45,203 nt of DNA. It comes from a virus. Made by a program: the position numbers and the translations under genes. Each line of letters opens with the position of its first letter. The first letter of the stretch is position 1. Where the stretch lies: the UHGV virus genome UHGV-0169311; one strand, 5' to 3'. This document shows positions 1 through 41,363 of the stretch, in pieces. Below the pieces are notes generated by a model. The model was not told the origin of the DNA. It did no database searches and was given only the letters and a program-made list of their open reading frames with translations.

Positions 1-49
1 CTTTGTGTACACTTTTGTGTACCCAAAAACAAAAATGTGTACCCATTCA

Positions 50-1482: not shown

Positions 1483-1721
1483 CCAACCTGCCCGGGCAGG
1501 GAGCGGAGACGGCGCATGCCGGTCATCGCTGTGGCCACGTAGCTCGCCTTTCGGTTCACCACCTCCACCCAGACTTTCACGCCTTCAACCTTCACCGTAT
1601 AAGTCTCTTTCATCTTGCTTCGCCCATAGTCGCCATATGTTTGCAAGTGAGCTGCCAGCGCGATGTCGCATGCTTGGCGAGCTAAAGGTGATTGCTTACT
1701 TCCTCGATTGATCAGTCGCAT
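1479..1721 (-). CDS. Hypothetical protein
   Basis: 80-aa ORF, start overlaps the stop of the upstream gene in the leftward operon; no recognisable family. Confidence 0.4.
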   Translation of the reverse strand: MRLINRGSKQSPLARQACDIALAAHLQTYGDYGRSKMKETYTVKVEGVKVWVEVVNRKASYVATAMTGMRRLRSLPGQVG

Positions 1722-5793: not shown

Positions 5794-5931
5794 GTGAGAT
5801 CCTCTTTTTTGAGTGTTAGAATCCCCGGGCCAGAGATAGCGCCCATTGGATGTTTTTTGGTTTGGTATAAATTCCGGTGTAACTTTGGTCGGTGGCACCG
5901 GACGTGAATCCCGCCTTGCGCGGGGTTTTCG

Positions 5932-6093
5932 TTATGCTTCGTGGGCCATCTGGTCGAACGAAGCGCAACGTACTGAACAGTAATCACGTTGCTCGCGTTT
6001 CAACTGCGTGCCGTGGATAAAGAGCAGTTCGTTTTTAACTTCCTTCCCTTGCTTGATCGGCTTGCGGCAGTACGCGCATTTTTTCTCCTGCAT
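5932..6093 (-). CDS. Small Cys-rich protein (53 aa), not in the ORF track
   Basis: ATG preceded by GGAG at 8-nt spacing. Translation MQEKKCAYCRKPIKQGKEVKNELLFIHGTQLKREQRDYCSVRCASFDQMAHEA has CxxC ... CxxxC, zinc-ribbon-like. Sits between two leftward genes. Confidence 0.35.
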   Translation of the reverse strand: MQEKKCAYCRKPIKQGKEVKNELLFIHGTQLKREQRDYCSVRCASFDQMAHEA

Positions 6094-10656: not shown

Positions 10657-10740
10657 CCGGTTCAAAAATGGCGAAAGCCGCGGTGCTCGAACACCAACGG
10701 CTTTCAGGTGCAAAAACAGTGCGTAATTGCGGAGAACAGT

Positions 10741-11649
10741 ATGTCAAACACCGCTGAAATAATCAATTTCCCAAATAAAACCGAACAACCGGGAGGTCGT
10801 ATGGCCGACCTGTCGAACGGGTATACCAAGGTCGCTAACGAGATCCAACAGCTTAAGCCTCGCCTGAGACTGTCAGGCCGGGAATGGCAATGTTTTGAGG
10901 CGGTGATCTGGCTTACCTACGGCTGGAACAAGAAACAGGACCGCGTGACAAATACGGTTATTGCCGAGCTTACGGGCCTGAGCGATACGCATGTATCGGA
11001 CGCGCTTAAGTCTCTCGCAGAACGCAAAATCATCTTTTCACAGAAGCAGGGCATGATGAAAATCGTCGGTGTAAACACTGACCTTTCAGCATGGATTTTA
11101 GACAAACCGGAAACGGGAAGAAAATTCCCGAAAACGGGAAAATCCTTCCCGAAATCAGGAATAACCTTCCCGAAAACGGTAGACACCCAATACAAGAACA
11201 AGAACAGTATTAAAAGATCTTCGTCCGAGAATTCTGACGAATCCTCTGACGCACGTCTGAAGAAATTTTTATCAACTCATCCTGAAGCTGCGGTCTACAC
11301 ACCATCCGGTGCGAAGTGGGGCTCTGCTGAAGACCTCGAGACAGCTAAGTGGATTTCCTCCAGGGTGAAGCTGATTAACCCAACCTGCAAAGCCCCGGAC
11401 ATGACCTCCTGGTCTAACACTGTTCGCCTGATGCGCCAGATAGACAACCGGTCGCACCAGGACATCTGCGCGCTGTATGACTGGGCTAGCAAACACCACT
11501 TCTGGCAGACCAACATCCTGAGTCCCGAAAGCCTGCGTAAGCAGTGGGACAAGCTGACAATGCAGCGTAACGCCGGAGGTGAGCAGCGCGCTGTCAAGCC
11601 AGATCTGGACTTCAACAACACTGACTGGGCCTATGGGGTGATCCGATGA
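10741..11649 (+). CDS. O: Replication initiation protein O
   Basis: Start MSNTAEIINFPNK parallels lambda O MTNTAKILNF; TYGWNKKQDRVT motif; contains internal iterons. Confidence 0.8.
   Translation: MSNTAEIINFPNKTEQPGGRMADLSNGYTKVANEIQQLKPRLRLSGREWQCFEAVIWLTYGWNKKQDRVTNTVIAELTGLSDTHVSDALKSLAERKIIFSQKQGMMKIVGVNTDLSAWILDKPETGRKFPKTGKSFPKSGITFPKTVDTQYKNKNSIKRSSSENSDESSDARLKKFLSTHPEAAVYTPSGAKWGSAEDLETAKWISSRVKLINPTCKAPDMTSWSNTVRLMRQIDNRSHQDICALYDWASKHHFWQTNILSPESLRKQWDKLTMQRNAGGEQRAVKPDLDFNNTDWAYGVIR
11104..11182. repeat. Origin iterons: four ~16-bp repeats (TTCCCGAAAACGGGAA-like) at 21-bp spacing inside the O gene
   Basis: Copies at 11104, 11125, 11146, 11167; each is an imperfect palindrome; an A-rich tract follows. 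Analogous to ori-lambda within O. Confidence 0.6.
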
Positions 11650-12335
11650 AATCTCTTGCAGAGCAGATGCGTAACCACGACCGCGAGCAGATGAGCCGCA
11701 TGGCCCATAACCTGCCAGAGCAGTACCAGGAGTGCGCGCCGGTCGAGCAGGTGGCGCAGGTATTCAACAAGCTGTTCAACGAGCTGCGCGCCGCGTTCCC
11801 GGCCAGCATGGCGAACTTCCGCACCCAGGAAGACCTGAACGAATTCCGCCGTCAGTGGCTGCTGGCGTTTCAGGAGAACGGGATCCACACCATGGCTCAG
11901 GTCGATGCCGGCATGCACATTGCCCGCCGCCAGGAGCGCCCATTCCTGCCGTCGCCGGGCCAGTTCGTCGCCTGGTGCAAGCAGAGCGGCGGCGCGCTGG
12001 GCGTCAACGTTGACCAGGTGATCGCCGAATACTGGGACTGGCGTAACCGCTCGTTCGAATTCATCTCCAGCGAGCAATTTCCATGGTCGCAGCCGGTCAT
12101 GTACCACATTTGCGTAGAATTGCGCCACCGCAGCACCGAGCGCCAGTTAACGCATGGTGAACTGGCACGCGAGGCAGGCGATCTGCTGGACATGTGGGAA
12201 AGGCGCGTCACCGAGGGTAAGCCAGTGCCGCCGGTACGCCGGGCTATTGCCGCACCAGCTGCCGAGCAAGGGCCGACGCCGATCCAGCTGCTGCTGGCCA
12301 AGTACAACCGCAACAAGTCGAACGGGATGGTGTGA
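11646..12335 (+). CDS. P: Replication protein P (DnaB helicase loader)
   Basis: Strong colinear similarity to lambda P (MK..AEQM.N.DREQM ... RPFLPSPGQFVAWC) from memory. Confidence 0.85.
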   Translation: MKSLAEQMRNHDREQMSRMAHNLPEQYQECAPVEQVAQVFNKLFNELRAAFPASMANFRTQEDLNEFRRQWLLAFQENGIHTMAQVDAGMHIARRQERPFLPSPGQFVAWCKQSGGALGVNVDQVIAEYWDWRNRSFEFISSEQFPWSQPVMYHICVELRHRSTERQLTHGELAREAGDLLDMWERRVTEGKPVPPVRRAIAAPAAEQGPTPIQLLLAKYNRNKSNGMV

Positions 12336-12336
12336 C

Positions 12337-12681
12337 ATGAACATAACAATCCGTGAGCAGGTGCTGGCAGCCCTGCGCAACAACCCAGGGTTGAACAACG
12401 CCAAACTGGCAGGGCTTATCGGCATGGACACCAAAAAGATATCCGGAACGGTGAGCACGCTGCTGGCAGACGGCCTGATCCGCTGCGAAGGAAAATACGG
12501 CCAGCGCCTTTACAGCCTGACCAGCTACGGAATGCGCTTCGCCCCTGACACGATACCTGGCATGAAGCAGGGTAAGTCGAAGTTAATTCAGCGGACGGAC
12601 ACAAACGTGATCTGCCAGGAGTGCCGCAACAGCGCGGCGATGAGAAGGGTATTGATGGTTTGGGGGAGGGTAGGGGTATGA
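12337..12681 (+). CDS. Hypothetical protein (possible winged-helix)
   Basis: ATG at 12337, 1 nt after the P stop; track ORF 12154..12681 is its in-frame upstream extension inside P. Confidence 0.5.
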   Translation: MNITIREQVLAALRNNPGLNNAKLAGLIGMDTKKISGTVSTLLADGLIRCEGKYGQRLYSLTSYGMRFAPDTIPGMKQGKSKLIQRTDTNVICQECRNSAAMRRVLMVWGRVGV

Positions 12682-17820: not shown

Positions 17821-17930
17821 AGGCCTCACGGGAATCATCCGCTACGTGCTTTGTTGATAAATCCAGCCCGTGAAGCCTGACCCTTTTCAAACACACACAC
17901 AGCGCCATCCGAAAAATCGGAGGTGAGGCT

Positions 17931-18209
17931 ATGACCAGAATGAGCACCATTTACAGCAGACTTTCATATGGAACAGGAACCACGCTGACCGGCTGCGGTG
18001 TATCAGCGAAGGCATATGCCGAAACAGCAAAAACAGCAAAAGAGGTGTCCTGGATGTTGGCCGACAGAATTGCAGGGTTAAGCCTGAGCGACTGGGCAAT
18101 TATTGTCGGTATCGCATGCACGGTAATCACCTGTGCAGTGAACTGGTATTTCCGCTGGAAAGAACGGGAGGATCGGCGCAATGGCTATGTCTCTAAAGCT
18201 GAAGAATAA
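17931..18209 (+). CDS. Holin (pinholin, S21-like)
   Basis: 92 aa, RBS GGAGGTGAGG, dual Met start (M1/M4), hydrophobic segment, C-terminus NWYFRWKEREDRR resembling phage 21 S; followed by a SAR endolysin. Confidence 0.75.
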   Translation: MTRMSTIYSRLSYGTGTTLTGCGVSAKAYAETAKTAKEVSWMLADRIAGLSLSDWAIIVGIACTVITCAVNWYFRWKEREDRRNGYVSKAEE

Positions 18210-18729
18210 ATTGAGCGCAGCGGTCGTTGGTTTGATTCTTGCCGGGGCTTCCGCACCCGTGATTCTCGATCAGTTTCTGGATGAGAAAGAGGGTAACAGC
18301 TTGACAGCATATCGCGACGGCGGCGGACTCTGGACCATTTGCCGTGGTGCAACAATGGTTGATGGCAAGCCAGTAGTACAGGGCATGAAGCTGTCAGCTG
18401 AGAAATGCGCCCAAGTAAACGCCATTGAACGCGACAAGGCGCTGGCGTGGGTTGACCGAAATATCAAAGTACCACTGACCGAACCACAGAAAGCGGGTAT
18501 CGCTTCTTTCTGCCCATATAACATCGGCCCCGGAAAATGTTTCCCGTCTACGTTCTATAAGCGAATTAATGCTGGCGATACGAAAGGAGCCTGTGAAGCT
18601 ATCCGCTGGTGGATTAAAGACGGTGGCCGCGATTGCCGCCTGACCAAGGGCCAGAAGGATGGATGTTATGGGCAGGTAGAACGGCGGGACCAGGAAAGCG
18701 CACTGACGTGCTGGGGGATAGACCAGTGA
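18181..18729 (+). CDS. SAR endolysin (T4-lysozyme-like, GH24)
   Basis: N-terminal SAR segment LSAAVVGLILAGASAPVIL, catalytic E ... D ... T spacing (DEKEGNSLTAYRDGGGLWTICRG). Confidence 0.8.
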   Translation: MAMSLKLKNKLSAAVVGLILAGASAPVILDQFLDEKEGNSLTAYRDGGGLWTICRGATMVDGKPVVQGMKLSAEKCAQVNAIERDKALAWVDRNIKVPLTEPQKAGIASFCPYNIGPGKCFPSTFYKRINAGDTKGACEAIRWWIKDGGRDCRLTKGQKDGCYGQVERRDQESALTCWGIDQ

Positions 18730-19229
18730 AGCCGGGTGGCATCTGCATCATTGTGATTGTTGCGTTGGTAGGTTCGTTTCTCGCTGGCAGTGAGTGGACG
18801 AACCGCAGCTGGAAAATAAAGTGGGCTGACCGGGATAGCGCGGAATCTTCACAGGAAGCGAATGCACAGACCGCAGCTCGTATGATTGAACAAGGGCGAA
18901 CAATCGCCCGGGATGAGGCCGTTAAAGATGCTCAAGCTCAAGCAGCGAGCGCTGCCGTTACTTCTGCTGGCCTGGCTACCACTGTTAAGCAGCTGCGCGC
19001 CGAAGCAACAAAACTCGCTACCCACATGGACGCCGCAAAGCACACCGCAGATCTCGCCACTTCCGTCAGAAGCAAAACAGCCGGAGCCAACGCAGCAATG
19101 CTTGCCGACATGCTCGGAAGCCTTGCAGAAGCAGCTCGATATTATGCTGGACGATCTGACGAAAGCTACCGGGCAGGAATGACGTGTGAGCGGATTTACG
19201 AATCAGTGCGACTGTCGAATAACCAATAG
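18726..19229 (+). CDS. Rz: Rz-like i-spanin
   Basis: GTG overlapping the endolysin stop; N-terminal transmembrane segment then Ala/Gln-rich coiled-coil-like region. Confidence 0.7.
   Translation: MKPGGICIIVIVALVGSFLAGSEWTNRSWKIKWADRDSAESSQEANAQTAARMIEQGRTIARDEAVKDAQAQAASAAVTSAGLATTVKQLRAEATKLATHMDAAKHTADLATSVRSKTAGANAAMLADMLGSLAEAARYYAGRSDESYRAGMTCERIYESVRLSNNQ
18928..19182 (+). CDS. Rz1: Rz1-like o-spanin lipoprotein embedded in Rz in another frame
   Basis: MLKLKQRALPLLLLAWLPLLSSC (lipobox LSSC), Pro-rich mature part; entirely inside Rz. Confidence 0.7.
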   Translation: MLKLKQRALPLLLLAWLPLLSSCAPKQQNSLPTWTPQSTPQISPLPSEAKQPEPTQQCLPTCSEALQKQLDIMLDDLTKATGQE

Positions 19230-19400
19230 GCGATTCATGCTGCTAGTTTTCGTCCTCTTGTCGATATGGCTCTGTCGGCAACATGAGGAACGCCGCTGGC
19301 CTTCGGTCGGCTTTAATGTCTCATCGCTGATGCTCATCACCGAGCAACCGGCACGCAGTAAGGGGCTGCGCTGAGATAAGAGCCGAGAATTCAATCAAAT

Positions 19401-19423
19401 CGCCTCGCACTCGCGGGGCTTTT
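19401..19423 (+). terminator. Rho-independent terminator (GCCUCGC-ACUC-GCGGGGC plus U-tract)
   Basis: Same stem sequence as the terminator at 17792; followed by CTTTTT. Confidence 0.5.
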
Positions 19424-19436
19424 TAACAACTGAGGA

Positions 19437-19640
19437 ATGAGCATGACAGTAGTTCTTACAGCTAAGCAGATTGAAGACCTGGCAGCCTTCGCGAAGGAAG
19501 ATGGCCAGCCTCAATACACCATCACCACCGGCACAATTCCTGAATTTGAAGCTGATAATGGTGAGATTATCCCCGGTTATACCGGACTTATCGCCTATTC
19601 AGAATCACTGGATCACGGTGTGTTGCAACTCGACGACTAG
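19437..19640 (+). CDS. Hypothetical protein
   Basis: 67 aa, RBS GAGGAATGAG; first gene after the lysis cassette. Confidence 0.45.
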   Translation: MSMTVVLTAKQIEDLAAFAKEDGQPQYTITTGTIPEFEADNGEIIPGYTGLIAYSESLDHGVLQLDD

Positions 19641-19708
19641 CGGCATTACAGCAGGCATTCACTGAGTGCCTGTGATAATGCAACAGCCCGTACAAAACGG
19701 GCTTGGAT

Positions 19709-20323
19709 TTATCTCTTTGTTGCGTTCATGGTCACATGGTAAACGAATTGGCTAAATTGGTTATCCCAGCGCCCATTATGATTAGCTGCAACTAATTGCA
19801 TTAACGCCTGCATTAACTTGCTGAACAGCAAGATTAACTTAAGTCTGTTTTTTGAACTGTCACTATCTAAGGAAACTTCTTCGGTTAATTGATTCTCGGC
19901 GTTAAAAATACCCAGTTTTGATTCTTCCATGCTGGGTTCCGTTGGATGCTGTTTAAAGTATTCAGTCAGAGTATCCTTCAGGCTCTGGATCCTTGAATCA
20001 GCAATGCTTTGTATTGATGGATTGTGTGCAAGGTCATTACGCATTGAGTTGATGGTTTTAAGTGATTTCATAAGTTCCGGGGGGATTCCCAGGTTTCCCG
20101 CCATGGATATTTTAGTATTACATTCGATTAAAAGTTTGTTTTTATCTCTTCCAAAGAGATCTTGGCAGTCACAGCATGCGCATATCCATGCTTCGACCAT
20201 GCGCTCACAAAGTAGGTGAATGCGCAATGTAGTACCCACATCGTCATCGCTTTCCACTGCTCTCGCGAATAAAGATGGAAAATCAATCTCATGGTAATAG
20301 TCCATGAAAATCCTTGCATTCAT
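19709..20323 (-). CDS. Hypothetical protein with HEPN-like R-x4-H motif (candidate abortive-infection/defence gene)
   Basis: 204-aa ORF on the strand opposite the late operon, AT-rich; motif MRNDLAHN; Cys cluster CACCDC; alternative start M7 with AAGGA RBS. Confidence 0.5.
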   Translation of the reverse strand: MNARIFMDYYHEIDFPSLFARAVESDDDVGTTLRIHLLCERMVEAWICACCDCQDLFGRDKNKLLIECNTKISMAGNLGIPPELMKSLKTINSMRNDLAHNPSIQSIADSRIQSLKDTLTEYFKQHPTEPSMEESKLGIFNAENQLTEEVSLDSDSSKNRLKLILLFSKLMQALMQLVAANHNGRWDNQFSQFVYHVTMNATKR

Positions 20324-20708
20324 AAATCCTCCAGGTAGCTATATGCAAATTGAAACAAAAGAGATGGTGATCTTTCTAAGAGATGATGGAATCTCCCTTC
20401 AGTATCCCGATGGTCAATGCGCTGGATATGGGATAGATGGGAATATGCTGATTTTTATGGGACAGAGTTGCGCACTGTTCCCAACTAAAATCATTTTGCA
20501 CGATCAGCGCACTACGAACTTTACCCACAAATAGTCAGGTAATGAATCCTGATATAAAGACAGGTTGATAAATCAGTCTTCTACGCGCATCGCACGCGCA
20601 CATCAAAGAGAGTCTTTCAGTAGTGAGCCTGGGTGATGCCGTTAGGTTGCGTTTACCTCTCGGGCGGCATTGCCGTGCGACAGGCTCACGCCTAAAAGGA
20701 AATATTCC

Positions 20709-21437
20709 ATGAGTAACAAAATCATTACGCTATCTGGCGCTGCTAATGAAGTGCTTTATGCGCTGTTTTTCCGTGGCGCGTTGCTGTCTGGTGATCTGCC
20801 TTCTAAATCTGGCACAGCCGAATTGCGCGAGCTTGGTTTTGCTGAAACCAGACACACAGCAACTGAATACCAGAAAGAAAATCACTTTACCTTTCTGACA
20901 TCAGAAGGGCAGAAATTTGCCGTTGAACACCTGGTCAATACGCGTTTTGGTGAGCAGCAATATTGCGCTTCGATGACGCTTGGCGTTGAGATTGATACCT
21001 CTGCTGCACAAAAGGCAATCGACGAGCTGGACCAGCGCATTCGTGACACCGTCTCCTTCGAACTTATTCGCAATGGAGTGTCATTCATCAAGGACGCCGC
21101 TATCGCAAATGGTGCTATCCACGCAGCGGCAATCGAAACACCTCAGCCGGTGACCAATATCTACAACATCAGCCTTGGTATCCAGCGTGATGAGCCAGCG
21201 CAGAACAAGGTAACCGTCAGTGCCGATAAGTTCAAAGTTAAACCTGGTGTTGATACCAACATTGAAACGTTGATCGAAAACGCGCTGAAAAACGCTGCTG
21301 AATGTGCGGCGCTGGATGTCACAAAGCAAATGGCAGCAGACAAGAAAGCGATGGATGAACTGGCTTCCTATGTCCGCACGGCCATCATGATGGAATGTTT
21401 CCCCGGTGGTGTTATCTGGCAGCAGTGCCGTCGATAG
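20709..21437 (+). CDS. Hypothetical protein
   Basis: 242 aa from ATG with AAGGA RBS (track ORF starts at 20670); immediately upstream of cos; no recognisable family. Confidence 0.55.
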   Translation: MSNKIITLSGAANEVLYALFFRGALLSGDLPSKSGTAELRELGFAETRHTATEYQKENHFTFLTSEGQKFAVEHLVNTRFGEQQYCASMTLGVEIDTSAAQKAIDELDQRIRDTVSFELIRNGVSFIKDAAIANGAIHAAAIETPQPVTNIYNISLGIQRDEPAQNKVTVSADKFKVKPGVDTNIETLIENALKNAAECAALDVTKQMAADKKAMDELASYVRTAIMMECFPGGVIWQQCRR

Positions 21438-21583
21438 CATGCAATTGATAATTATTATCGTTTGCGGGTCCTTTCCGGCGATCCGCCTTGTTACGGGGCG
21501 GCGTCCGCGCAGATTCTCGCTATATATGAAAATTTTGGACATGAGGTTGTTGTTTAATCATTGCTGAAAACGGGTGAGGGAAT
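21438..21583. other. cos region; putative cohesive-end core GGGCGGCGTCCG at 21496..21507
   Basis: ttacggggcggcgtccgcgc ... tttcgctatatatgaaaatttt closely parallels the lambda cos sequence (TTACGGGGCGGCGACCTCGCGGGTTTTCGCTATTTATGAAAATTTT, from memory), immediately upstream of Nu1. Confidence 0.6.
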
Positions 21584-22090
21584 ATGGCCGTGCTATTGAA
21601 TAAATCTGATATGGCTTCCTCGCTGGGAATATCCGTCCAGGCCTTTGATAAATGGGGTGTCCAGCCAGTAGAAAAGAGAGGGCGAGAAGTCTTCTTTGAC
21701 GTTCGTTCAGTCGTTGATAACCGCATCGAACACCAGAGTCGAAAACTACAACCATCGCCGGGAGAAGACGATGATGGTGTCAATATTGATTATGAACGTT
21801 GGCGTTTAACTCGTGCTAATGCGGATGCGGCTGAGCTGGCCAATGAGAAAAAGCGTCGCGAGGTCGTAGAGACTGCGTTTTGTACCTTCGTGTTATCCAG
21901 AATTGCCGCTGAAATATCCAGTATTCTGGATGGCATACCCCTTTCGATGCAGCGCCGGTTCCCTGAGCTGGAAAATCGGCATATCGAGTTCCTGAAAGGG
22001 GACGTAATAAAGGCGATGAATAAGGCTGCGGCGCTGGATGAACGGATTCCGGGGTTGTTGAATGATTATATCGACCAGTCAGGTAGCTAA
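21584..22090 (+). CDS. nu1: Terminase small subunit
   Basis: Colinear with lambda Nu1 (EVVETAFCTFVLSRIA.EI.SILDG.PLS.QRRFPELENRH) from memory. Confidence 0.9.
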   Translation: MAVLLNKSDMASSLGISVQAFDKWGVQPVEKRGREVFFDVRSVVDNRIEHQSRKLQPSPGEDDDGVNIDYERWRLTRANADAAELANEKKRREVVETAFCTFVLSRIAAEISSILDGIPLSMQRRFPELENRHIEFLKGDVIKAMNKAAALDERIPGLLNDYIDQSGS

Positions 22091-23984
22091 TCTGCGAGCA
22101 GCGGTAAAAGCTGGTCTGAAATCACTATACCGCCCGGAACCCATGACAGCTGTCGAATGGGCCGATGCGCATTATTACCTTCCGAAGGAATCCGCTTATC
22201 AGGAAGGGCGCTGGGAAACATTGCCATTTCAGCGCGCGATCATGAATGCGATGGGCAGCGACTATATTCGCATTGTTAACGTAATTAAGTCGGCGCGAGT
22301 AGGCTATTCGAAAATGCTACTCGGCGTCATTGCTTATTTCATCGAGCACAAACAACGTAATGAGTTGCTGTGGCTGCCGACCGACGGCGACGCAGATAAT
22401 TTCATGAAGTCACACGTTGAACCTACGATTCGTGATGTTCCCTCGCTGTTATCACTTGCTCCCTGGTATGGGAAAAAGCACAGGGATAACACGCTGTCGA
22501 TGAAGCGATTTACCAATGGCCGTGGCTTCTGGTGCTTGGGTGGTAAATCGGCAAAGAACTATCGTGAAAAATCAGTCGATGTCGTTGGATACGATGAGCT
22601 GGCTGCGTTTGACGCTGATATTGAGAAAGAGGGTTCGCCGACCTTCCTGGGGGATAAGCGTATCGAGGGTTCTGTTTGGCCCAAATCCATACGCGGTTCG
22701 ACACCGAAATTGCGTGGAACGTGTCAGATTGAGCGAGCAGCAAAAGAGTCCGGACATTTTATGCGATTTCATGTCGCATGCCCGCACTGTGGTGAAGAGC
22801 AGTATCTTAAATTTGGTGACCGGGATACTCCTTTCGGCTTCAAATGGGAGCCTGAGCAGGCCGAAACGGTCTACTACCTCTGCGAGCATAATGCTTGTGT
22901 CATTAAGCAACACGAACTGGACTTTTCCAACGCTCGTTATATCTGCGAATTGACCGGAATATGGACGCGCGACGGGCTTCGCTGGTTCTCATCGTCTAAT
23001 GCTGAAATTGACCCACCTGAAAGCGTAACTTTCCACATCTGGACTGCTTTTAGCCCGTTTACCACTTGGGTACAGATAGTTAAAGACTGGTTCAAAACGA
23101 AAGGCGACACGGGTAAACGCAAGACATTTGTGAACACCACCCTGGGCGAAACGTGGGAAGCGAAAATCGGTGATCGCCCCGATGCAGACGTTTTAGCAGA
23201 GCGTAAAGAGCACTTTGATGCAGCAGTACCTGAGCGAGTGGCGTATCTGACAGCTGGTATTGACTCCCAGCTCGACCGTTACGAAATGCGTGTGTGGGGA
23301 TGGGGGCCGGGTGAGGAAAGCTGGCTTATCGACAGGCAAATCATCATGGGTCGCCATGATGATGAGTCAACGCTTGCCCGTGTGGATGAGGCGATTAACA
23401 AGACATATAAACGCCGGAACGGCGTAGAAATGTTTATATCCCGTATCTGCTGGGATATCGGTGGTATTGATCCCACTATCGTTTACAACCGCTCGAAAAA
23501 ACACGGTCTGTTTCGTGTGATCCCGATAAAGGGTGCGTCGGTTTATGGAAAGCCGGTGGCGAACATGCCACGCAAACGCAACAAAAACGGTGTTTATCTG
23601 ACAGAAGTGGGTACTGATACCGCGAAAGAGCAGATTTATAACCGCTTCACGCTGACCGTTGAAGGTGATGAGCCTCTGGCCGGTGCCGTTCACTTCCCCA
23701 ATAACCCCGATATTTATGATCTTTCAGAGGCGCAGCAGCTGACCGCCGAAGAACTGGTCGAAAAGTGGGTTGATGGTAAGAGAAAAATCATATGGGACAG
23801 CAAAAAAAGGCGAAATGAGGCTCTCGACTGCTTTGTTTACGCACTGGCGGCGCTTCGTATCAGCATATCCCGCTGGCAGCTTAACCTTGATTCACTTCTT
23901 GCCAGCCTGCTGGAGGAAGAAGGCACCCGTAACAATAACAAGACCCTGGCGGATTACGCGCGGGCATTGTCTGGAGAGGAATAA
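22062..23984 (+). CDS. A: Terminase large subunit
   Basis: Near-colinear identity with lambda gpA over 640 aa (from memory). Confidence 0.95.
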
Positions 23985-24190
23985 TGGCAACACAGACTGA
24001 ACTGGATGCCGCGCGCGCTGCGTTACATGACCTGATGATGGGGAAACGAGTGGCGACGGTACAGAAAGATGGCCGAAGAGTGGAATTTACAGCTACCTCA
24101 GTCACCGATCTCAAAAAGTATATTGCTGACCTTGAATCTCAGGTTGGTACCACATCACGACGCCAGGGGCCTGCAAGGTTTTACGTATGA
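23984..24190 (+). CDS. W: Head-tail joining protein W
   Basis: 68 aa, colinear with lambda gpW ([40 protein letters not shown]). Confidence 0.9.
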
Positions 24191-25779
24191 AAATACCATC
24201 TTTAGTGGGTCCTGACGGGAAAACGTCCCTCCGGGAATACGCGGGGTATCATGGCGGCGGCGGAGGGTTTGGTGGTCAGTTGCGGGGCTGGAATCCACCA
24301 AGCGAAAGTGCTGATGCGGCTCTTCTGCCTAACTTCTCGCGCGGAAATGCCCGTGCTGACGATCTGGTCAGAAATAATGGCTATGCGGCAAACGCCGTGC
24401 AGCTCCACCAGGACCACATCGTCGGGTCATTTTTCAGACTCAGCTATCGACCGAGCTGGCGCTATCTTGGCATCAATGAGGAGGATTCACGCGCATTTTC
24501 GCGGGATGTAGAAGCCGCCTGGAACGAGTATGCCGAGGATGATTTTTGCGGGATTGATGCTGAGCGCAAGCGAACCTTTACGATGATGATCCGTGAAGGT
24601 GTGGCCATGCATGCGTTTAACGGTGAATTATGCATGCAGGCGACATGGGACAGCGATTCAACGCGTCTTTTCCGTACTCAGTTCAAAATGGTCAGTCCGA
24701 AGCGCGTCAGTAATCCAAACAATATCGGTGATACCCGGAACTGTCGCGCCGGTGTGAAAATAAATGATAGCGGTGCTGCGCTGGGATATTACGTCAGCGA
24801 CGATGGTTATCCCGGCTGGATGGCGCAGAACTGGACCTACATTCCTCGCGAACTACCCGGCGGTCGACCTTCATTTATCCATGTATTCGAACCGATGGAG
24901 GATGGACAGACCCGTGGGGCCAATGCGTTTTACAGCGTGATGGAGCAGATGAAAATGCTCGATACCCTGCAAAATACCCAGCTCCAGAGCGCGATAGTGA
25001 AGGCTATGTATGCCGCTACCATCGAGAGTGAACTGGATACCCAATCGGCGATGGACTTTATTCTCGGCGCGGATAATAAAGAGCAGCAGAGCAAACTTAC
25101 GGGCTGGCTCGGTGAAATGGCGTCCTATTACTCAGCTGCGCCTGTTCGCCTGGGTGGGGCAAGGGTTCCACACCTGTTGCCGGGTGATTCTCTCAACCTT
25201 CAGTCGGCGCAGGATACCGATAACGGCTACTCGACTTTTGAACAGTCCCTGCTGCGTTATATTGCCGCTGGGCTTGGTGTGTCGTATGAGCAGCTTTCGC
25301 GAAACTATTCGCAGATGAGCTACTCGACCGCACGCGCAAGTGCTAACGAGTCCTGGGCGTACTTTATGGGGCGTCGCAAGTTTGTGGCATCCCGACAGGC
25401 CTGTCAGATGTTTCTTTGCTGGCTTGAAGAGGCGATTGTCCGCCGCGTGGTCACGCTTCCTTCGAAAGCCCGGTTCAGTTTCCAGGAGGCGAGAACAGCC
25501 TGGGGGAATGCCAACTGGATTGGCTCTGGTCGAATGGCAATTGACGGGCTGAAAGAGGTACAGGAGGCCGTCATGCTCATTGAGGCAGGTCTCAGCACGT
25601 ATGAAAAAGAGTGCGCCAAACGCGGTGATGATTATCAGGAGATTTTTGCCCAGCAGGTCCGGGAAACCATGGAGCGTCGTGCTGCGGGTCTGAAACCACC
25701 GGCATGGGCCGCTGCAGCTTTTGAGGCCGGAGTGAAAAAATCAAACGAGGAGGAGCAAGATGGCGCACGAGCTGCGTAA
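24187..25779 (+). CDS. B: Portal protein
   Basis: Near-colinear identity with lambda gpB (from memory). Confidence 0.95.
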
Positions 25780-27103
25780 TCTTCCGCATATTGCCAGTAT
25801 GGCCTTTAATGAGCCGCTGATGCTTGAACCCGCCTATGCGCGGGTTTTCTTTTGCGCGCTGGCTGGCCAGTTGGGCATCACCCGGCTGACAGATACCGTC
25901 TCTGGCATCACGCTTGATGCCGGACAAATAGCCGAACCGCTGGCGCTGTTTGGTGAGGATGATGACATGGATCCCCGTCCATCACGCAGCTATCAGGTGG
26001 CAAATGGTATCGCGGTCTTGCCGGTTTCCGGCACGCTGGTCAGTAAAACCCGTGCGCTTCAGCCTTATTCCGGCATGACGGGTTACAACGGGATCATTGC
26101 TCGCCTGCAGCAGGCAATCAGTGACCCCGGCGTTGACGGCATTCTTCTGGATATGGATACGCCGGGTGGAATGGTGTCCGGGGCGTTTGACTGCGCCGAC
26201 ATTATAGCCCGTATGCGCGATATCAAACCCATCTGGGCGCTGGCCAATGACATGAACTGCAGTGCAGGGCAGCTTATAGCCAGTTCGGCATCGCGACGGC
26301 TGGTCACACAAACGGCCAGAACCGGCTCCATTGGGGTCATGATGGCGCACAGCAACTATGGCGCTGCGCTCAAAACTAACGGCGTTGAGGTCACGCTGAT
26401 TTACAGCGGCGATCGCAAGGTCGACGGCAACCCTTACGAAAAGCTTCCGAAAGATGTGCGTGCTGATTTCCAGACGCGTATCGATGCCACTCGTCAGATG
26501 TTTGCCGAAAAGGTTTCCGCTTATACCGGCATGTCTGTTCAGGACGTGCTGGACACCGAAGCGGCAGTATTCTCCGGCCAGGAGTCTTTGGATAACGGAC
26601 TGGCGGATGAACTTGTTAACAATACCGATGCGCTCGGCGTGATGCGCGAAGCACTCGACAGACGCAAAAAAACAACCCTTGGAGGAACTATGCCATCACC
26701 TTCTGCTTCAGCTGTGACCACTAAGCCAGTTGACCAGGCAGCAACTCAGACAACTGCCTCAGCTGAACAGGTCGCTACCGTTGACACGACCATTGCTTCC
26801 GTAGCGGCCCCTGTAGATGTCAGTGCGCAGGTTACTGCAGCAGTAGCTGCAGAGAATAGCCGCATCATGGGCATCCTGAACTGCGATGAGGCTAAAGGGC
26901 GTGAGTCACAGGCGCGAGCACTGGCCGAAACGCCGGGTATGACGGTAGAGAGCGCACAGCGCATTCTGGCTGCTGCACCGCAAAGTGCCCAGGCGCGTAC
27001 CGATACGGCGCTGGATCGTTTGATGGAAACAGCACCCGGTGCACTCCCAGCAGGTAGCGCATCTTCTGATGCCGCTGACGATTTGTTAAACACCCCCGTT
27101 TAA
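25760..27103 (+). CDS. C: Head maturation protease / scaffold (ClpP/S49-like)
   Basis: Colinear with lambda gpC (from memory). Confidence 0.9.
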   Translation: MAHELRNLPHIASMAFNEPLMLEPAYARVFFCALAGQLGITRLTDTVSGITLDAGQIAEPLALFGEDDDMDPRPSRSYQVANGIAVLPVSGTLVSKTRALQPYSGMTGYNGIIARLQQAISDPGVDGILLDMDTPGGMVSGAFDCADIIARMRDIKPIWALANDMNCSAGQLIASSASRRLVTQTARTGSIGVMMAHSNYGAALKTNGVEVTLIYSGDRKVDGNPYEKLPKDVRADFQTRIDATRQMFAEKVSAYTGMSVQDVLDTEAAVFSGQESLDNGLADELVNNTDALGVMREALDRRKKTTLGGTMPSPSASAVTTKPVDQAATQTTASAEQVATVDTTIASVAAPVDVSAQVTAAVAAENSRIMGILNCDEAKGRESQARALAETPGMTVESAQRILAAAPQSAQARTDTALDRLMETAPGALPAGSASSDAADDLLNTPV

Positions 27104-27112
27104 GAGGCTATC

Positions 27113-27445
27113 ATGGCAATTACTGAAGTTTTCACACATAACCAGCCGCTCGGTAACAGCGACCCGGCGCACACTGCGTATGGTCCTGGCGAACTGACGG
27201 CTTCCACTCCAGCCATGACGCCGCTCATGCTGGATGCCACTTCTGGCAAGCTGACCGTCTGGGATGGTGCTCATGCTGGCGCGGCAATGGGCATCCTGGC
27301 TGTAACCGCAGACCAGAACAGCGCGGAACTGGCATATTACAAATCTGGCTCTTTCCGTATTGAAGATGTCCTCTGGCCATCTGCCGTCACCGACGACAAC
27401 ATTAAACGTAACGCGTTCGCCGGTACTGCAATCAGCATCGTTTAA
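27113..27445 (+). CDS. D: Head decoration protein
   Basis: 110 aa, colinear with lambda gpD (from memory). Confidence 0.9.
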
Positions 27446-27474
27446 TCCGCATTTCTACAACCATCATCATTCAT

Positions 27475-27499
27475 AAAAGCCGCTTGCGCGGCTTTTTTT
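27475..27499 (+). other. Terminator-like RNA hairpin between D and E (AAAAGCCGC-TTGC-GCGGCTTTT plus T-tract)
   Basis: Perfect stem followed by TTTTTTT, 14 nt upstream of the E start, inside the late operon. Confidence 0.4.
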
Positions 27500-27512
27500 A
27501 CGGGAAAAATCT

Positions 27513-28538
27513 ATGTCCGTTTACACCACTGCCCAACTGCTGGCGGTCAATGAGAAGAAATTCAAATTCGATCCGCTTTTCCTGCGTATCTTTTTCCGCG
27601 AAACCTATCCCTTCAGTACAGAGAAGGTTTACCTGTCGCAAATTCCTGGCCTGGTCAATATGGCGCTTTACGTCTCGCCGATTGTCTCCGGCAAAGTGAT
27701 CCGCTCCCGTGGCGGCAGCACGTCTGAATTCACGCCGGGTTATGTGAAGCCGAAACACGAAGTTAACCCACTGATGACTCTCCGCCGCCTGCCGGATGAG
27801 GATCCGCAGAATCTCGCTGACCCGGTCTATCGCCGTCGCCGCATTATCCTTCAGAACATGAAGGATGAAGAGCTGGCGATTGCTCAGGTCGAAGAGAAAC
27901 AGGCTGTTTCGGCGGTGCTCAGCGGTAAATACACCATGACCGGGGAAGCGTTCGAGCCTGTTGAAGTCGATATGGGCCGCAGCGCTGGTAACAACATTGT
28001 CCAGGCCGGTGCGGCTGCATGGTCAACCCGCGACAAAGAAACGTATGACCCGACCGATGACATTGAAGCCTACGCGCTCAACGCCAGCGGTGTGGTCAAC
28101 ATCATTGTGTTCGATCCGAAAGGCTGGGCGCTGTTCCGTTCCTTCAAGGCTGTTGAGAAGAAGCTGGATACGCGTCGTGGTTCTAACTCTGAGCTGGAAA
28201 CTGCCGTGAAAGACCTGGGTATGGCTGTTTCATACAAGGGGATGTTTGGCGATGTGGCCATCGTGGTGTACTCCGGCCAGTACGTCGAAAACGACGTCAA
28301 AAAGAATTATCTGCCGGACCTGACAATGGTGCTGGGGAATACCCAGGCTCGTGGCCTGCGTACCTATGGCTGCATTCTTGATGCTGATGCCCAGCGCGAA
28401 GGTATCAATGCCTCGACACGCTACCCGAAAAACTGGGTGCAGTCGGGGGATCCGGCGCGCGAATTCACCATGATTCAGTCAGCTCCGCTGATGCTGCTGC
28501 CAGACCCTGACGCATTCGTCTCCGTCAAACTGGCATAA
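27513..28538 (+). CDS. E: Major capsid protein
   Basis: 341 aa, near-identical N-terminus to lambda gpE (MS.YTTAQLLA.NE.KFKFDPLFLR). Confidence 0.95.
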   Translation: MSVYTTAQLLAVNEKKFKFDPLFLRIFFRETYPFSTEKVYLSQIPGLVNMALYVSPIVSGKVIRSRGGSTSEFTPGYVKPKHEVNPLMTLRRLPDEDPQNLADPVYRRRRIILQNMKDEELAIAQVEEKQAVSAVLSGKYTMTGEAFEPVEVDMGRSAGNNIVQAGAAAWSTRDKETYDPTDDIEAYALNASGVVNIIVFDPKGWALFRSFKAVEKKLDTRRGSNSELETAVKDLGMAVSYKGMFGDVAIVVYSGQYVENDVKKNYLPDLTMVLGNTQARGLRTYGCILDADAQREGINASTRYPKNWVQSGDPAREFTMIQSAPLMLLPDPDAFVSVKLA

Positions 28539-28583
28539 CTTCCCCCAGTGGCCCTGTCGGGCCACCTTTCTGGAGTATTTCCC

Positions 28584-29000
28584 ATGACAGAAAAAGAAAA
28601 GCTGGTCGCCCGCCTGAATGAACTTGGGACCCAGCTTAACCGCGAGGTCAGTACCAGCGGCACCATTCAGGAACTGACGATGCGTATTGCTGAGCTTGAA
28701 GAGGAACTGGATGGCAATGCCGGGTCAGTTGACGGTGAAAACGGCGTGCAGAATGCTTCCGACAGCACCGACAGCACCGACAGCACCGACAACAATGTTG
28801 CTAACGTGGCAAAAGTAAAAACGGAATCGGCCACAACGGGTGACCTGGTATCAGTAGAAACGCTGGCCACCCTGCATATTGACGCTCTGCATGCCACGCG
28901 TAACGAGCCGGTATCTATCGTAGAGCCTGGTGTGATTATCCGCGTATCTGAACAGGATGCCGACGACTTGATCGCAAAGGGGCTGGCTTTCGAAGTCTGA
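28584..29000 (+). CDS. FI: DNA packaging protein FI
   Basis: Start MTEKEKLVARL (track ORF starts upstream at 28548); similar to lambda gpFI at both termini, with a variable acidic/Ser-Thr linker. Confidence 0.8.
   Translation: MTEKEKLVARLNELGTQLNREVSTSGTIQELTMRIAELEEELDGNAGSVDGENGVQNASDSTDSTDSTDNNVANVAKVKTESATTGDLVSVETLATLHIDALHATRNEPVSIVEPGVIIRVSEQDADDLIAKGLAFEV
28761..28790 (+). repeat. 9-bp tandem repeat (GACAGCACC) x3.3 in the FI linker
   Basis: gacagcaccgacagcaccgacagcaccgac encodes DSTDSTDSTD. Confidence 0.85.
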
Positions 29001-29010
29001 AGGGGGCCAC

Positions 29011-29364
29011 ATGGCTGATTTCGATAATCTCTTTGACGAGGCCATGTCGCGAGCTGATAGCGCTATCCGTGGTGTGATGGGCACAGAGGCAAAGGTGATG
29101 TCAGGCGCTTTGTCAGGTGCCACCCTGGTCGGTGTATTCGATGATCCAGAAAATATCGGATATGCCGGTGCCGGGATTCGTGTTGAAGGAACCAGCCCGA
29201 CCCTGTTTGTGGAAACCGCCACTGTCAGGCAGCTGCAGCGTATGGACACGCTGACGATTAACGGTCGGCAATTCTGGGTTGAACGTATTGGTCCGGATGA
29301 CTGTGGCTCCTGTCATATCTGTCTGGGTAACGGCTCTCCACCTGCATCTTCGCGTCGCCGTTAA
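29011..29364 (+). CDS. FII: Head-tail joining protein FII
   Basis: Colinear with lambda gpFII (MADFDNLFD ...). Confidence 0.9.
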   Translation: MADFDNLFDEAMSRADSAIRGVMGTEAKVMSGALSGATLVGVFDDPENIGYAGAGIRVEGTSPTLFVETATVRQLQRMDTLTINGRQFWVERIGPDDCGSCHICLGNGSPPASSRRR

Positions 29365-29373
29365 GGAGCGCAT

Positions 29374-29928
29374 ATGTCCATAAAAGGCCTTGAACAGGCC
29401 ATAGAAAACCTTAACAGCATCAGCAAAACGGCTGTTCCGCGGGCATCGGCGCAGGCCGTTAACCGCGTGGCAAACCGGGCCGTCAGCCGCAGCGTGGCAG
29501 TCGTATCAAAAGATACGCGCGTACCGCGAAAACTGGTAAAGCAACGCGCCAGGGTGAAGCGTGCGACGGTCAATAGACCTCGTGCACTTATCCGGGTAAA
29601 CCGGGGAAATTTACCGGCCATTAAACTCGGTACCGCAAGCGTGCGACTTTCCCGCAGAAAACGGGACAAGAAAGGGGCCAACAGCGTTCTGCGCATAGGG
29701 CCATTTCGTTTTCCGGGCGGCTTTATCCAGCAACTTAAAAATGGTCGCTGGCATGTCATGAGGCGGACTTCAAAACCTCGTTACCCCATTGAAGTGGTCA
29801 GCATCCCGCTGGCAGCTCCATTAACTACGGCATTTAAAGAAGAACTGCCGAAGCTCATGGAGTCAGATATGCCCAAAGAGCTCCGGGCATCCCTTACCAA
29901 CCAACTCAGGTTAATTCTGACACGATGA
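29374..29928 (+). CDS. Z: Minor tail protein Z
   Basis: Colinear with lambda gpZ (M.IKGLEQA.ENL..ISKTAVP ...). Confidence 0.9.
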   Translation: MSIKGLEQAIENLNSISKTAVPRASAQAVNRVANRAVSRSVAVVSKDTRVPRKLVKQRARVKRATVNRPRALIRVNRGNLPAIKLGTASVRLSRRKRDKKGANSVLRIGPFRFPGGFIQQLKNGRWHVMRRTSKPRYPIEVVSIPLAAPLTTAFKEELPKLMESDMPKELRASLTNQLRLILTR

Positions 29929-40274: not shown

Positions 40275-40275
40275 T

Positions 40276-41252: not shown

Positions 41253-41290
41253 TTGATCGTTTTTAGCGATCAATAACATAATATTGATCT
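41252..41290. promoter_or_regulatory. Cluster of three GATC sites within TTGAT/ATCAA palindromes upstream of the lipoprotein gene
   Basis: GATC at ~41255, 41268, 41286; inverted repeat ATTGATCG-N7-CGATCAAT. Confidence 0.3.
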
Positions 41291-41363
41291 ATCCAATCAA
41301 TTATACCCACCAGAATTGTATTGGTATCGTCTAAGATACTGAATTCCTCTGGATACTATCAAA

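What the first reader, a model, noticed from the sequence alone, without database searches (positions are those of the whole stretch)
19437..20534. AT-rich opposite-strand gene with a HEPN-like R-x4-H motif at the bor-equivalent moron slot between the lysis cassette and cos
Between Rz/Rz1 and the cos/terminase block, where lambda carries bor on the opposite strand, there is a 204-aa minus-strand ORF (19709..20323) in clearly AT-richer DNA than the flanking late genes. It contains MRNDLAHN, i.e. an Arg-x4-His spacing as in HEPN RNase active sites (Abi proteins, HepT, Cas13), plus a Cys cluster (CACCDC). It is flanked by small plus-strand ORFs (19437..19640 and a doubtful 20304..20534) and bounded upstream by a plus-strand terminator. 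Position, strand and composition fit a horizontally acquired defence or abortive-infection cargo gene. The motif evidence is weak.
Basis: partly seen in the sequence, partly recalled or inferred. Interest (0 to 1): 0.65.

Follow-up and report, generated by a model that had tools for sequence, protein, structure and literature searches.

The report
HepS-like prophage HEPN gene pair
An AT-rich cargo gene between the lysis genes and cos of a phi80-like prophage encodes a distant relative of HepS, a recently described phage-defence tRNA nuclease; unlike HepS it is always paired head-to-head with a tiny conserved gene that may switch it off during the prophage's own lytic growth.

Summary

Corrections: the Cys cluster is not conserved, and the 67-aa ORF (19437..19640) belongs to the left flank. 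The "doubtful" ORF is a real 63-aa gene starting at 20343 (dN/dS 0.17-0.5). It is present at 36 of 36 loci and intact in 35.

This partner always diverges from the HEPN gene across a ~20-nt spacer, and it recurs with relatives only 27-36% identical. The HEPN gene is antisense to the phage late genes and the partner is sense.

Best reading: a HepS-like abortive-infection RNase with a late-expressed partner, possibly an inhibitor analogous to Tha/Ith. Function, trigger and the partner's role are inferred, not shown. The cassette is in phage phi80, Nissle 1917 and TOP10/NEB10-beta.

The parts
19681..20578 (.). The inserted AT-rich cassette (898 bp): the HEPN-like gene, a 19-nt spacer, the small partner gene and a 3' hairpin.
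   Evidence: Phage mEp390 is homologous to window 19402-19680 and 20579-20702 but has 167 bp of unrelated DNA in between. GC is 0.40-0.44 here against about 0.5 or more in the flanks. The cassette is >=99% identical in 80 of 5426 complete E. coli genomes.
19709..20323 (-). hepS-like gene: a 204-aa stand-alone HEPN-fold protein (phi80 PHI80_63/AFV29200.1; WP_000993911.1 in Nissle 1917).
20024..20050 (-). Codons for N92-S-M-R95-N-D-L-A-H100, the predicted HEPN catalytic motif (R-x4-H with Asn after Arg).
   Evidence: N92, S93, R95, N96, A99 and H100 are invariant in alignment A1. N92, R95, N96 and H100 are >=90% conserved in the 107-sequence alignment A2. The motif aligns to HepS R100..H105, the residues shown experimentally to be required.
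19850..19969 (-). Hypervariable segment (residues 119-158: a loop plus the predicted beta-hairpin at 137-150); a candidate specificity or sensor surface.
   Evidence: This segment is 20-26% identical between subclades whose residues 1-118 are 56-76% identical and whose residues 159-195 are 44-70% identical. Column entropy peaks in residues 121-150, within this segment. The hairpin is seen in the AF2 model.
20324..20342 (.). 19-nt spacer between the two divergent start codons; it carries a Shine-Dalgarno sequence for each gene (GGAGG on the minus strand, AGG on the plus strand).
   Evidence: Read from the sequence. In all 35 loci with an intact partner the two start codons lie 18-21 nt apart, and 18-29 nt apart in distant clades. 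Each gene's promoter must therefore lie within or beyond the other gene.
20343..20534 (+). Small partner gene, 63 aa (within phi80 PHI80_64 'putative Fur-regulated protein', which is annotated from the earlier ATG; WP_001165416.1); predicted four-stranded beta-meander.
   Evidence: Present at 36 of 36 loci carrying the HEPN-like gene and intact in 35. dN/dS 0.17-0.50. Invariant residues M1, F11, D14, D15, S18, L19, A27, Y29, G33, G40, P47, D54 and R56. AF2 pLDDT 84. Recurs beside relatives P0023, P0024 and P0026.
19642..19701 (.). Two hairpins immediately 3' of the HEPN-like stop codon. 19682-19701 lies inside the cassette. 19642-19681 is a widely conserved 40-bp element at the left junction. 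Probably bidirectional terminator or 3'-stabiliser structures.
   Evidence: RNA fold of the minus strand: -31.4 kcal/mol, z=-5.0, and 0 of 200 shuffles fold as well. The 40-bp element is 100% identical in several Klebsiella phage records.
19402..19419 (+). Context: intrinsic-terminator-like hairpin after the lysis genes, upstream of the 65-67-aa flank ORF.
   Evidence: Found. phi80 also has a terminator annotated at the corresponding position just after Rz/Rz1; this stretch itself is not homologous to phi80.

Best explanation
The cassette is a prophage-borne defence module. Its effector is a stand-alone HEPN ribonuclease of the HepS lineage.

Shown by computation: the 204-aa protein has a HEPN fold, keeps an invariant R-N-x3-H catalytic motif, and is homologous to HepS.

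Inferred from the HepS and Tha precedents: in the lysogen the protein sits as an inactive oligomer. A protein of an infecting phage, probably a late structural protein, binds it, perhaps on the hypervariable 119-158 hairpin region. That opens composite R/H active sites, which cut tRNA or other RNA, stop translation and abort the infection.

Inferred from anatomy: the HEPN gene is always antisense to the phage late operon, and the 63-aa partner is always sense to it. When the resident prophage goes lytic, Q-antiterminated late transcription would therefore run antisense through the HEPN gene and at the same time express the partner. The most likely role for the partner is to inhibit or modulate the nuclease so that the prophage tolerates its own lytic cycle. 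That would be analogous to Ith with Tha.

My confidence by step:
- HEPN fold and HepS homology: about 0.9.
- Anti-phage abortive-infection RNase: about 0.6.
- Partner functionally coupled to the nuclease: about 0.6.
- Partner specifically a late-expressed inhibitor: about 0.35.

For: Sequence: the A1 profile hits HepS at E=6e-4 with the motif in register. The A2 profile hits HepS at E=2.4e-16 over about 120 residues, with Csm6 HEPN next. Members graze only Pfam HEPN families and a few unrelated singletons. Weak PADLOC CARF_HEPN and PHROG Abi hits point the same way.

Motif: invariant in the family. The aligned HepS residues R100 and H105 are required for defence and for tRNA cleavage (PMC13043305).

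Cargo status: an 898-bp AT-rich insert absent from mEp390. It appears in at least six different phage backbones and slots: lysis-terminase, tape measure-M/L, and Big_2-Arc/Ant.

Orientation: 33,797 aa of flanking long ORFs lie on the opposite strand and 2,673 aa on the same strand, over 23 loci.

Partner: present at 36/36 loci and intact in 35. It is under purifying selection, sits across a fixed ~20-nt head-to-head spacer, and recurs with relatives of 27-36% identity.

Precedent: Tha, a tail-activated prophage HEPN RNase, is inhibited by Ith, the product of a 201-nt antisense gene. Antisense transcription switches between the two states (PMC11087260).
Against: - No experiment. RNase activity, toxicity, defence and expression in lysogens are all untested.
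- No convincing sigma-70 promoter for the HEPN gene was found, and none is positionally conserved.
- Partner and nuclease divergences are decoupled. Window vs L005: partner 89% identical with dS 0.21; nuclease 63% identical with dS 2.3. That is not what a tightly co-evolving inhibitor-target pair predicts.
- Some family members (P0031, P0078, probably P0020) have no partner, and HepS works solo.
- HepS's trigger logic does not transfer simply. The residue aligned to lambda J F924 is Ile in the window's J but Phe in phi80's J, although phi80 carries a 99.5%-identical nuclease.
- From my own knowledge, unverified here: phi80 lysogens are not known to exclude lambda, and lambda-phi80 hybrids were made routinely. 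This argues against broad lambda restriction.
Confidence: 0.55

Rival explanations
1. The HEPN protein works alone, exactly like HepS. The small divergent gene is an independent moron, or a regulator or co-sensor, that travels with it only because of tight physical linkage.
For: HepS is self-sufficient and has no conserved partner (PMC13043305). Family members P0031 and P0078 lack the small gene. Partner and nuclease show decoupled divergence, implying recombination between them. The partner has no recognisable inhibitor or antitoxin fold.
Against: Linkage persists from 100% down to 27% nuclease identity and across at least six unrelated insertion sites, always with the same head-to-head geometry and an 18-29-nt spacer. 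Hitch-hiking alone should have broken that over such distances. The partner family is about as narrow as the close HEPN-like family (25 and 19 clusters at 90% identity, both in Enterobacterales).
Confidence: 0.2
2. A toxin-antitoxin or addiction module. The HEPN RNase is a toxin and the 63-aa protein its antitoxin. The pair stabilises the prophage rather than sensing phages.
Against: TA pairs are normally co-transcribed operons, whereas these genes are divergent with promoters inside each other. There is no MNT nucleotidyltransferase or other known antitoxin family. The nearest characterised relative, HepS, is non-toxic on its own. One natural locus (L028) has the partner frameshifted while the nuclease ORF is intact.
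Confidence: 0.12
3. A catalytically inert HEPN-fold regulator like MtlR/YggD, or a phage-benefit RNase used in the phage's own development rather than in defence.
Against: The R-N-x3-H motif is invariant and under strong purifying selection, which indicates retained catalysis. From my own knowledge, not checked here: MtlR and YggD lack the R-x4-6-H motif. The gene is antisense to the late operon in every backbone, the wrong orientation for a late-function gene. It is dispensable cargo, being absent from mEp390.
Confidence: 0.08

Closest known systems
HepS (STM14_3211, Salmonella Gifsy-1 prophage; PDB 9oij/9oik; Sargen et al., Nature 2026, PMC13043305)
   Different: Only 13-17% identical over structural alignments. 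[quoted passage not shown] It is always paired with a conserved divergent 63-aa gene, whereas HepS is 'solo'. It has a hypervariable internal hairpin, whereas HepS binds its trigger through its N- and C-terminal strands. Trigger, oligomeric state and RNA target are unknown here. phi80's own J keeps Phe at the lambda-F924 position.
Tha-Ith of Staphylococcus aureus prophages (80alpha gp03/gp02; Rostol et al., Nat Microbiol 2024, PMC11087260)
   Same: A prophage HEPN RNase defence coupled to a gene of about 65 aa on the opposite strand. Overlapping antisense transcription makes 'immunity on' (lysogeny) and 'immunity off' (lytic cycle) mutually exclusive. This is the architecture and logic I propose here.
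   Different: No detectable homology for either protein (hhalign prob < 1%). Tha is 301 aa with an extra N-terminal region. tha and ith are convergent with overlapping 3' ends in the lysogeny module, whereas these genes are head-to-head in the late region. Inhibition by the small protein is proven for Ith and only hypothesised here.
HEPN-MNT toxin-antitoxin systems and Abi_2 (AbiD/AbiF) HEPN abortive-infection proteins
   Different: No MNT partner. No match reaches any family threshold. Different size and architecture.
lambda bor (positional analogue only)
   Different: Unrelated protein. bor is a lipoprotein conferring serum resistance, from my own knowledge.

Membership tests
HEPN superfamily | All-alpha helical-bundle HEPN fold | tested here: met
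HEPN superfamily | Conserved R-x4-6-H motif with a polar residue after Arg | tested here: met
   R95-N-D-L-A-H100 is invariant in A1, >=90% conserved in A2, and present in 160 of 168 family proteins held.
HEPN superfamily | Dimerisation that forms a composite active site; metal-independent RNase activity | not testable with these tools
   No multimer prediction or biochemistry was available.
HepS family (stand-alone prophage HEPN Abi) | Sequence homology to HepS | tested here: met
   The close-family profile A1 gives E=6e-4 over the motif helix. The one-step-broader profile A2 gives E=2.4e-16, 63 bits, over HepS residues 25-146. HepS itself was not among the listed hits of the exhaustive search, so the relationship is distant. 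Whether this protein is among the paper's 393 homologues could not be checked because the supplements are not held.
HepS family (stand-alone prophage HEPN Abi) | Single-domain protein under 250 aa, encoded on prophages | tested here: met
   204 aa with no other domain. Every locus with enough flanking sequence lies among phage genes.
HepS family (stand-alone prophage HEPN Abi) | 'Solo': no conserved partner gene | tested here: not met
   A conserved divergent 63-74-aa gene is present at 36/36 close loci and beside P0023, P0024 and P0026. It is absent beside P0031 and P0078.
HepS family (stand-alone prophage HEPN Abi) | Activation by the siphovirus tail-tip J peptide around lambda F924, with the resident prophage carrying a silent (Ile) variant | tested here: inconclusive
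   The window's J has Ile1072 at the aligned position, but phi80's J has Phe although phi80 carries the same cassette. Binding and activation cannot be tested here.
HepS family (stand-alone prophage HEPN Abi) | Tetramer; cleavage of specific tRNA anticodon loops | not testable with these tools
   Requires biochemistry. No tRNA genes are present in the window.
Tha-Ith | Homology to Tha-1/Tha-2 and Ith-1/Ith-2 | tested here: not met
   hhalign of A2 against 80alpha gp03 gives prob 0.4%, covering only the 12-residue motif. A3 against 80alpha gp02 gives prob 0.1%.
Tha-Ith | Small opposite-strand gene whose product inhibits the HEPN nuclease, with overlapping antisense transcription | tested here: inconclusive
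   The opposite-strand small gene and the unavoidable transcript overlap are shown. Inhibition is not testable here.
HEPN-MNT toxin-antitoxin | Adjacent minimal nucleotidyltransferase antitoxin in the same operon | tested here: not met
   The cassette holds only the two genes. The partner is a 63-aa beta-meander with no Pfam, NCBIfam or PADLOC hit.
Fur regulon (as annotated for PHI80_64) | Fur box at the promoter | tested here: not met
   No site beside the cassette matches the 19-bp consensus better than 12/19, a level reached 52 times in the window. The best sites (15/19, twice) are at 21441-21465 near cos.

The most novel reading that the evidence does not exclude
The pair is a self-contained, portable immunity module. 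It combines a HepS-like nuclease, whose hypervariable hairpin senses a late protein of competing phages, with its own antidote gene, wired into the host phage's late operon by orientation alone. Because the antidote travels with the nuclease, the cassette can land in any phage backbone without that phage first evolving a 'silent' trigger variant, which is the Gifsy-1/HepS solution. That would explain why the cassette is found in many unrelated late-region slots, always in the same orientation. It would be a second, independently evolved solution to prophage autoimmunity for HEPN Abi proteins in Gram-negative phages, convergent with Tha-Ith in staphylococci.
Probability: 0.3. Interest if true: 0.75.

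Novelty: new variant of a known kind. Interest (0 to 1): 0.6.

Why it matters
It gives a concrete, testable function to two 'hypothetical' genes of phi80, one of the classic coliphages.

The same cassette sits in the probiotic Nissle 1917 and, through the phi80 remnant, in everyday cloning strains such as TOP10 and NEB10-beta. A latent abortive-infection nuclease in those strains could bias phage-plating and defence-system assays run in them.

Biologically, it extends the just-described HepS family to a sister clade that is not solo. It also suggests a different way for a prophage to avoid self-targeting: a linked, late-operon-oriented small gene rather than a silent tail-tip allele. The question becomes directly testable in phi80 and E. 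coli K-12.

The hypervariable 119-158 segment offers a handle on how such sensors diversify.

Tried and rejected
1. Cys cluster as a metal site: rejected. Only C48 and C68 are invariant; C50, C51 and C53 vary.

2. 'Fur-regulated' label for the small gene: no Fur box lies beside it. The best matches are about 900 bp away, near cos. The label seems inherited from the phi80 record ('ORF x171.8'), and I found no supporting paper.

3. Link to the reported lambda/stx resistance of Nissle 'prophage 3' (PMC5987069): none of that paper's pr primers occurs in the window, and only 3.6 kb of the window matches Nissle. No link is claimed.

4. Transfer of the HepS trigger and escape logic (lambda J F924 / Ile): inconsistent between the window (Ile) and phi80 (Phe).

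5. Direct family assignment by Pfam, NCBIfam or PADLOC: no hit at threshold. PHROG 5483 and 20632 are 'unknown function'.

6. Retrieving HepS with a 50-aa fragment through the homology search found nothing, and that search was wasted. tblastn of the fragment against the phage collection also found nothing.

7. The search for related loci failed with the broad alignments because no stretch was conserved enough. P0020 and P0023 had no relatives in IMG/VR.

9. Homology to Tha-1 and Ith-1: none.

10. Promoters: no sigma-70 consensus match, and no positionally conserved -10/-35 across diverged loci.

11. Rfam on 19200-21700: nothing. The 130-bp repeated leader folds only marginally better than shuffles, z=-1.8.

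12. tRNA genes as an anticodon-nuclease countermeasure: none in the window.
Full report
**1. The observation**

The window carries a 204-aa ATG-initiated ORF on the minus strand at 19709..20323. GC content drops to 0.40-0.44 over 19600-20650, against 0.50-0.57 in the lysis genes upstream and 0.48-0.51 downstream.

Upstream lie a holin, a lysozyme (18181..18729) and a DUF2514 Rz-like gene. Downstream lie an N15-gp59-like gene (20670..21437), Nu1 (21584..22090; Pfam PF07471, E=2e-38) and the large terminase. A terminator-like hairpin sits at 19402-19419 on the plus strand. MRNDLAHN is residues 94-101.

The window as a whole is a phi80-like mosaic prophage. Its int/xis, part of the replication genes, the cassette-cos segment, the head genes and the 3' end of J through the cor region match phi80 at 88-99.5%. 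Only 17865-21459 matches a Nissle 1917 prophage, at 99.4%. The ORF is phi80 PHI80_63 and Nissle WP_000993911.1; both are annotated 'hypothetical'.

**2. Is the motif more than chance?**

An R-x4-H spacing alone is weak evidence; by my estimate about one 200-aa protein in four or five has one. The word-indexed homology search found only 19 clusters at 90% identity, all in Enterobacteriaceae.

In their alignment, N92, S93, R95, N96, A99 and H100 are invariant. In the 'CACCDC' cluster only C48 is invariant; the other invariant Cys, C68, lies outside it.

An exhaustive profile search of 1.84 billion representatives found 206 relatives at E<=1e-3 and 73 at E<=1e-10. Nearly all are stand-alone proteins of about 140-235 aa. 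Of the 168 family proteins then held, 160 have R-[NHD]-x3-H at the equivalent position, with consensus N-x-I-R-N-x-F-A-H.

**3. Fold and homology**

The AlphaFold2 model built on the family alignment is confident: pLDDT 87.1, pTM 0.83. It is all-alpha plus a beta-hairpin at 137-150, with a disordered tail at 189-204.

- Foldseek against the PDB ranks the four chains of HepS (9oij, 9oik) first, at prob 1.00 and TM 0.47-0.57. MtlR/YggD, sacsin HEPN and HEPN toxins follow.
- By sequence, the close-family profile hits HepS at E=6e-4 with R95/H100 aligned to HepS R100/H105.
- A 107-sequence profile built from the exhaustive-search hits matches HepS at E=2.4e-16 over about 120 residues. Csm6 HEPN is next at 0.02.
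- Individual members graze mostly Pfam HEPN families: RiboL-PSP, Cthe2314, Abi_2 and DUF4145. The window protein itself reaches no Pfam, NCBIfam or PADLOC threshold.

**4. What HepS is**

All of this comes from PMC13043305. HepS is a single-protein abortive-infection system on the Salmonella prophage Gifsy-1. It forms a resting tetramer that is opened by direct binding of a 32-residue peptide of the siphovirus tail-tip protein J, around lambda F924. It then cuts tRNA-Thr and a few other tRNAs in the anticodon loop. R100 and H105 are required. It has no conserved partner. Gifsy-1 escapes self-targeting because its own J has Ile instead of Phe at that position.

**5. The new element: a conserved partner**

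*Linkage.* Across the 36 fetched loci that carry the HEPN-like gene, a homologue lies head-to-head with it. In the 35 loci where it is intact the two start codons are 18-21 nt apart. In one locus (L028) it is frameshifted. Many of these loci are near-identical copies, and about nine distinct lineages are represented.

*Selection.* The small gene is under purifying selection, with dN/dS 0.17-0.50 and pS up to 0.8. It evolves faster than the nuclease, whose dN/dS is 0.05-0.14.

*Spacer.* The 19-nt spacer holds a Shine-Dalgarno sequence for each gene. Each promoter must therefore lie within or beyond the other gene, and the two transcripts must overlap.

*Distant clades.* The pairing persists beside relatives that are only 36%, 32% and 27% identical to the window nuclease (P0023, P0024, P0026). 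It is absent beside P0031 and P0078, and probably beside P0020.

*The partner family.* It is about as narrow as the close HEPN-like family: 25 clusters, Enterobacterales. It is predicted as a four-stranded beta-meander (pLDDT 84) with no informative structural neighbour.

*The other flanking ORF.* The 67-aa ORF at 19437..19640 is not part of the unit. It belongs to the flank shared with mEp390, which lacks the cassette, and the ORF in the corresponding position at the Citrobacter locus L005 is unrelated to it.

**6. Cassette limits and placement**

Comparison with mEp390 delimits the insert to 19681..20578, or 898 bp. It contains just the two genes plus a hairpin directly after the nuclease stop codon. 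That hairpin and the adjacent conserved 40-bp hairpin fold with z=-5.0.

The cassette occurs in several unrelated slots:
- between the lysis genes and cos/Nu1 in phi80 and this window;
- between the lysis genes and a DUF2280-type terminase in Citrobacter;
- between a Big_2 tail gene and an Arc/Ant region;
- between tail genes M and L;
- between the tape-measure gene and M.

The partnerless relative P0031 sits in a comparable slot, between lysis genes and HNH-TerS-TerL.

In 23 loci, 33,797 aa of flanking long ORFs lie on the strand opposite the nuclease and 2,673 aa on the same strand. So the nuclease is consistently antisense to the late operon, and the partner is consistently sense to it.

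**7. Mechanism**

*Shown by computation:* a HEPN fold, an intact and invariant catalytic motif, homology to an experimentally proven prophage Abi anticodon nuclease, mobile AT-rich cargo status, and a tightly linked partner under selection.

*Inferred:* the protein is an RNase held inactive until a phage protein binds it. Residues 119-158 (a loop plus the hairpin) are hypervariable. They are 20-26% identical between subclades whose flanking regions are 44-76% identical, which fits a specificity surface.

The orientation rule suggests that antiterminated late transcription of the resident prophage would both oppose nuclease expression and express the partner. The Tha-Ith system of S. aureus phages is a proven precedent. 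There a HEPN RNase activated by tail proteins is inhibited by the product of a 201-nt antisense gene, and antisense transcription makes the two states exclusive (PMC11087260). Neither protein here is homologous to Tha or Ith, so this would be convergence, not membership.

**8. Evidence that cuts the other way**

- No sigma-70 promoter could be identified or shown to be conserved, so expression in lysogens is an assumption.
- Partner and nuclease divergence are decoupled. Window vs L005: 89% against 63% identity, and dS 0.21 against 2.3. The partner's identity tracks the nuclease core (Spearman 0.81-0.86) rather than the hypervariable segment (0.48), a non-independent statistic. This fits a partner that contacts conserved surfaces, or one that does not contact the nuclease at all.
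- Some relatives, and HepS itself, lack a partner.
- The lambda-F924-equivalent residue is Ile in the window's J but Phe in phi80's J, so HepS's specific trigger and escape logic cannot simply be carried over.
- From my own knowledge, phi80 lysogens are not known to exclude lambda.

**9. Side issues resolved**

- The 'Fur-regulated' name attached to the partner is not backed by any Fur box nearby. The best matches in the window (15/19, twice) are at 21441-21465, near cos.
- The published lambda/stx resistance of Nissle 1917 was tied to the pr gene of 'prophage 3' (PMC5987069). Its primers are absent from the window, so I claim no connection.
- I found no paper mentioning these accessions.

**10. 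Distribution**

The cassette is >=99% identical in 80 of 5,426 complete E. coli genomes. These include Nissle 1917 derivatives and the cloning strains NEB10-beta and TOP10. In TOP10 it lies in the phi80 remnant between rha and the terminase genes, and PGAP does not annotate the small gene there.

**11. Verdict**

The finding is real and the HEPN interpretation is supported. The nuclease is a distant member of the newly described HepS lineage. The obligate head-to-head partner and the strict antisense-to-late-operon placement make it a new variant of that kind. The mechanism is plausible and readily testable, but it is unproven.

Noticed in passing
window 19642-19681: A 40-bp hairpin-forming element at the exact left junction of the cassette is 100% identical in at least seven Klebsiella phage records and in an Elizabethkingia phage record (H18-H25). 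mEp390 has a close copy. It may be a widely shared terminator or a module-boundary recombination sequence. Its presence in an Elizabethkingia phage record is odd.
   Followed up: partly
window 20583-20716; L001 (phi80) 2350-2487; L003 (mEp390) 3444-3554: A block of about 130 bp immediately upstream of the N15-gp59-like gene is duplicated in phi80 upstream of rha (78% identity) and also precedes mEp390_054. It looks like a conserved leader or linker that marks the junctions where cargo genes are swapped. It folds only marginally better than shuffles (z=-1.8) and has no Rfam match.
   Followed up: partly
window 21441-21465: The two best Fur-box-like sites in the whole 45-kb window (15/19 matches each, overlapping: GCAATTGATAATTATTATCGTTTGC) lie between the gp59-like gene and Nu1, in the cos region. 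This is probably the real origin of the 'Fur-regulated' label on the phi80 ORFs x171.8 and x171.28. Whether Fur binds near cos is unknown.
   Followed up: partly
window 36819-40274 (J-like tail-tip protein), residue 1072: The residue aligned to lambda J F924, the HepS trigger residue, is Ile. This is the same 'silent' substitution the Gifsy prophages use to avoid HepS. phi80's J has Phe there. It could matter for compatibility with HepS-type defences elsewhere in the host.
   Followed up: yes
E. coli TOP10 NZ_CP080620.1 1253924-1254793 (L050 5029-5898); also NEB10-beta: Common cloning strains carry the cassette at 99.8% identity within their phi80 remnant. In TOP10, PGAP annotates the HEPN-like gene as 'hypothetical' and does not call the 63-aa partner at all.
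   Followed up: partly
L028 about 5800-5990: In one IMG/VR contig the partner gene is split by a frameshift while the nuclease ORF is intact. This is either a sequencing error or a natural partner-null allele. If real, the nuclease is tolerated without the partner.
   Followed up: no
window 1-1700, 10731-12377, 17865-21459, 21857-29399, 39288-42067, 44765-45203: The prophage is a mosaic. Its int/xis, part of the replication genes, the head genes and the 3' end of J through the cor region match phi80 at 88-99.5%. The lysis-cassette segment is 99.4% identical to a Nissle 1917 prophage. The two ends of the window match sequence on either side of the phi80 attP core, so the window spans most or all of the integrated prophage.
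   Followed up: partly
L002 (Nissle NZ_CP058217.1) 54-923 and 1434-2486; the stretch before 17865 has no homologue in the window: Upstream of the lysis genes the Nissle prophage carries an 'SDH family Clp fold serine proteinase' and a DNA methyltransferase. These are further accessory or defence-type cargo in the Q-lysis region and were not examined here.
   Followed up: no
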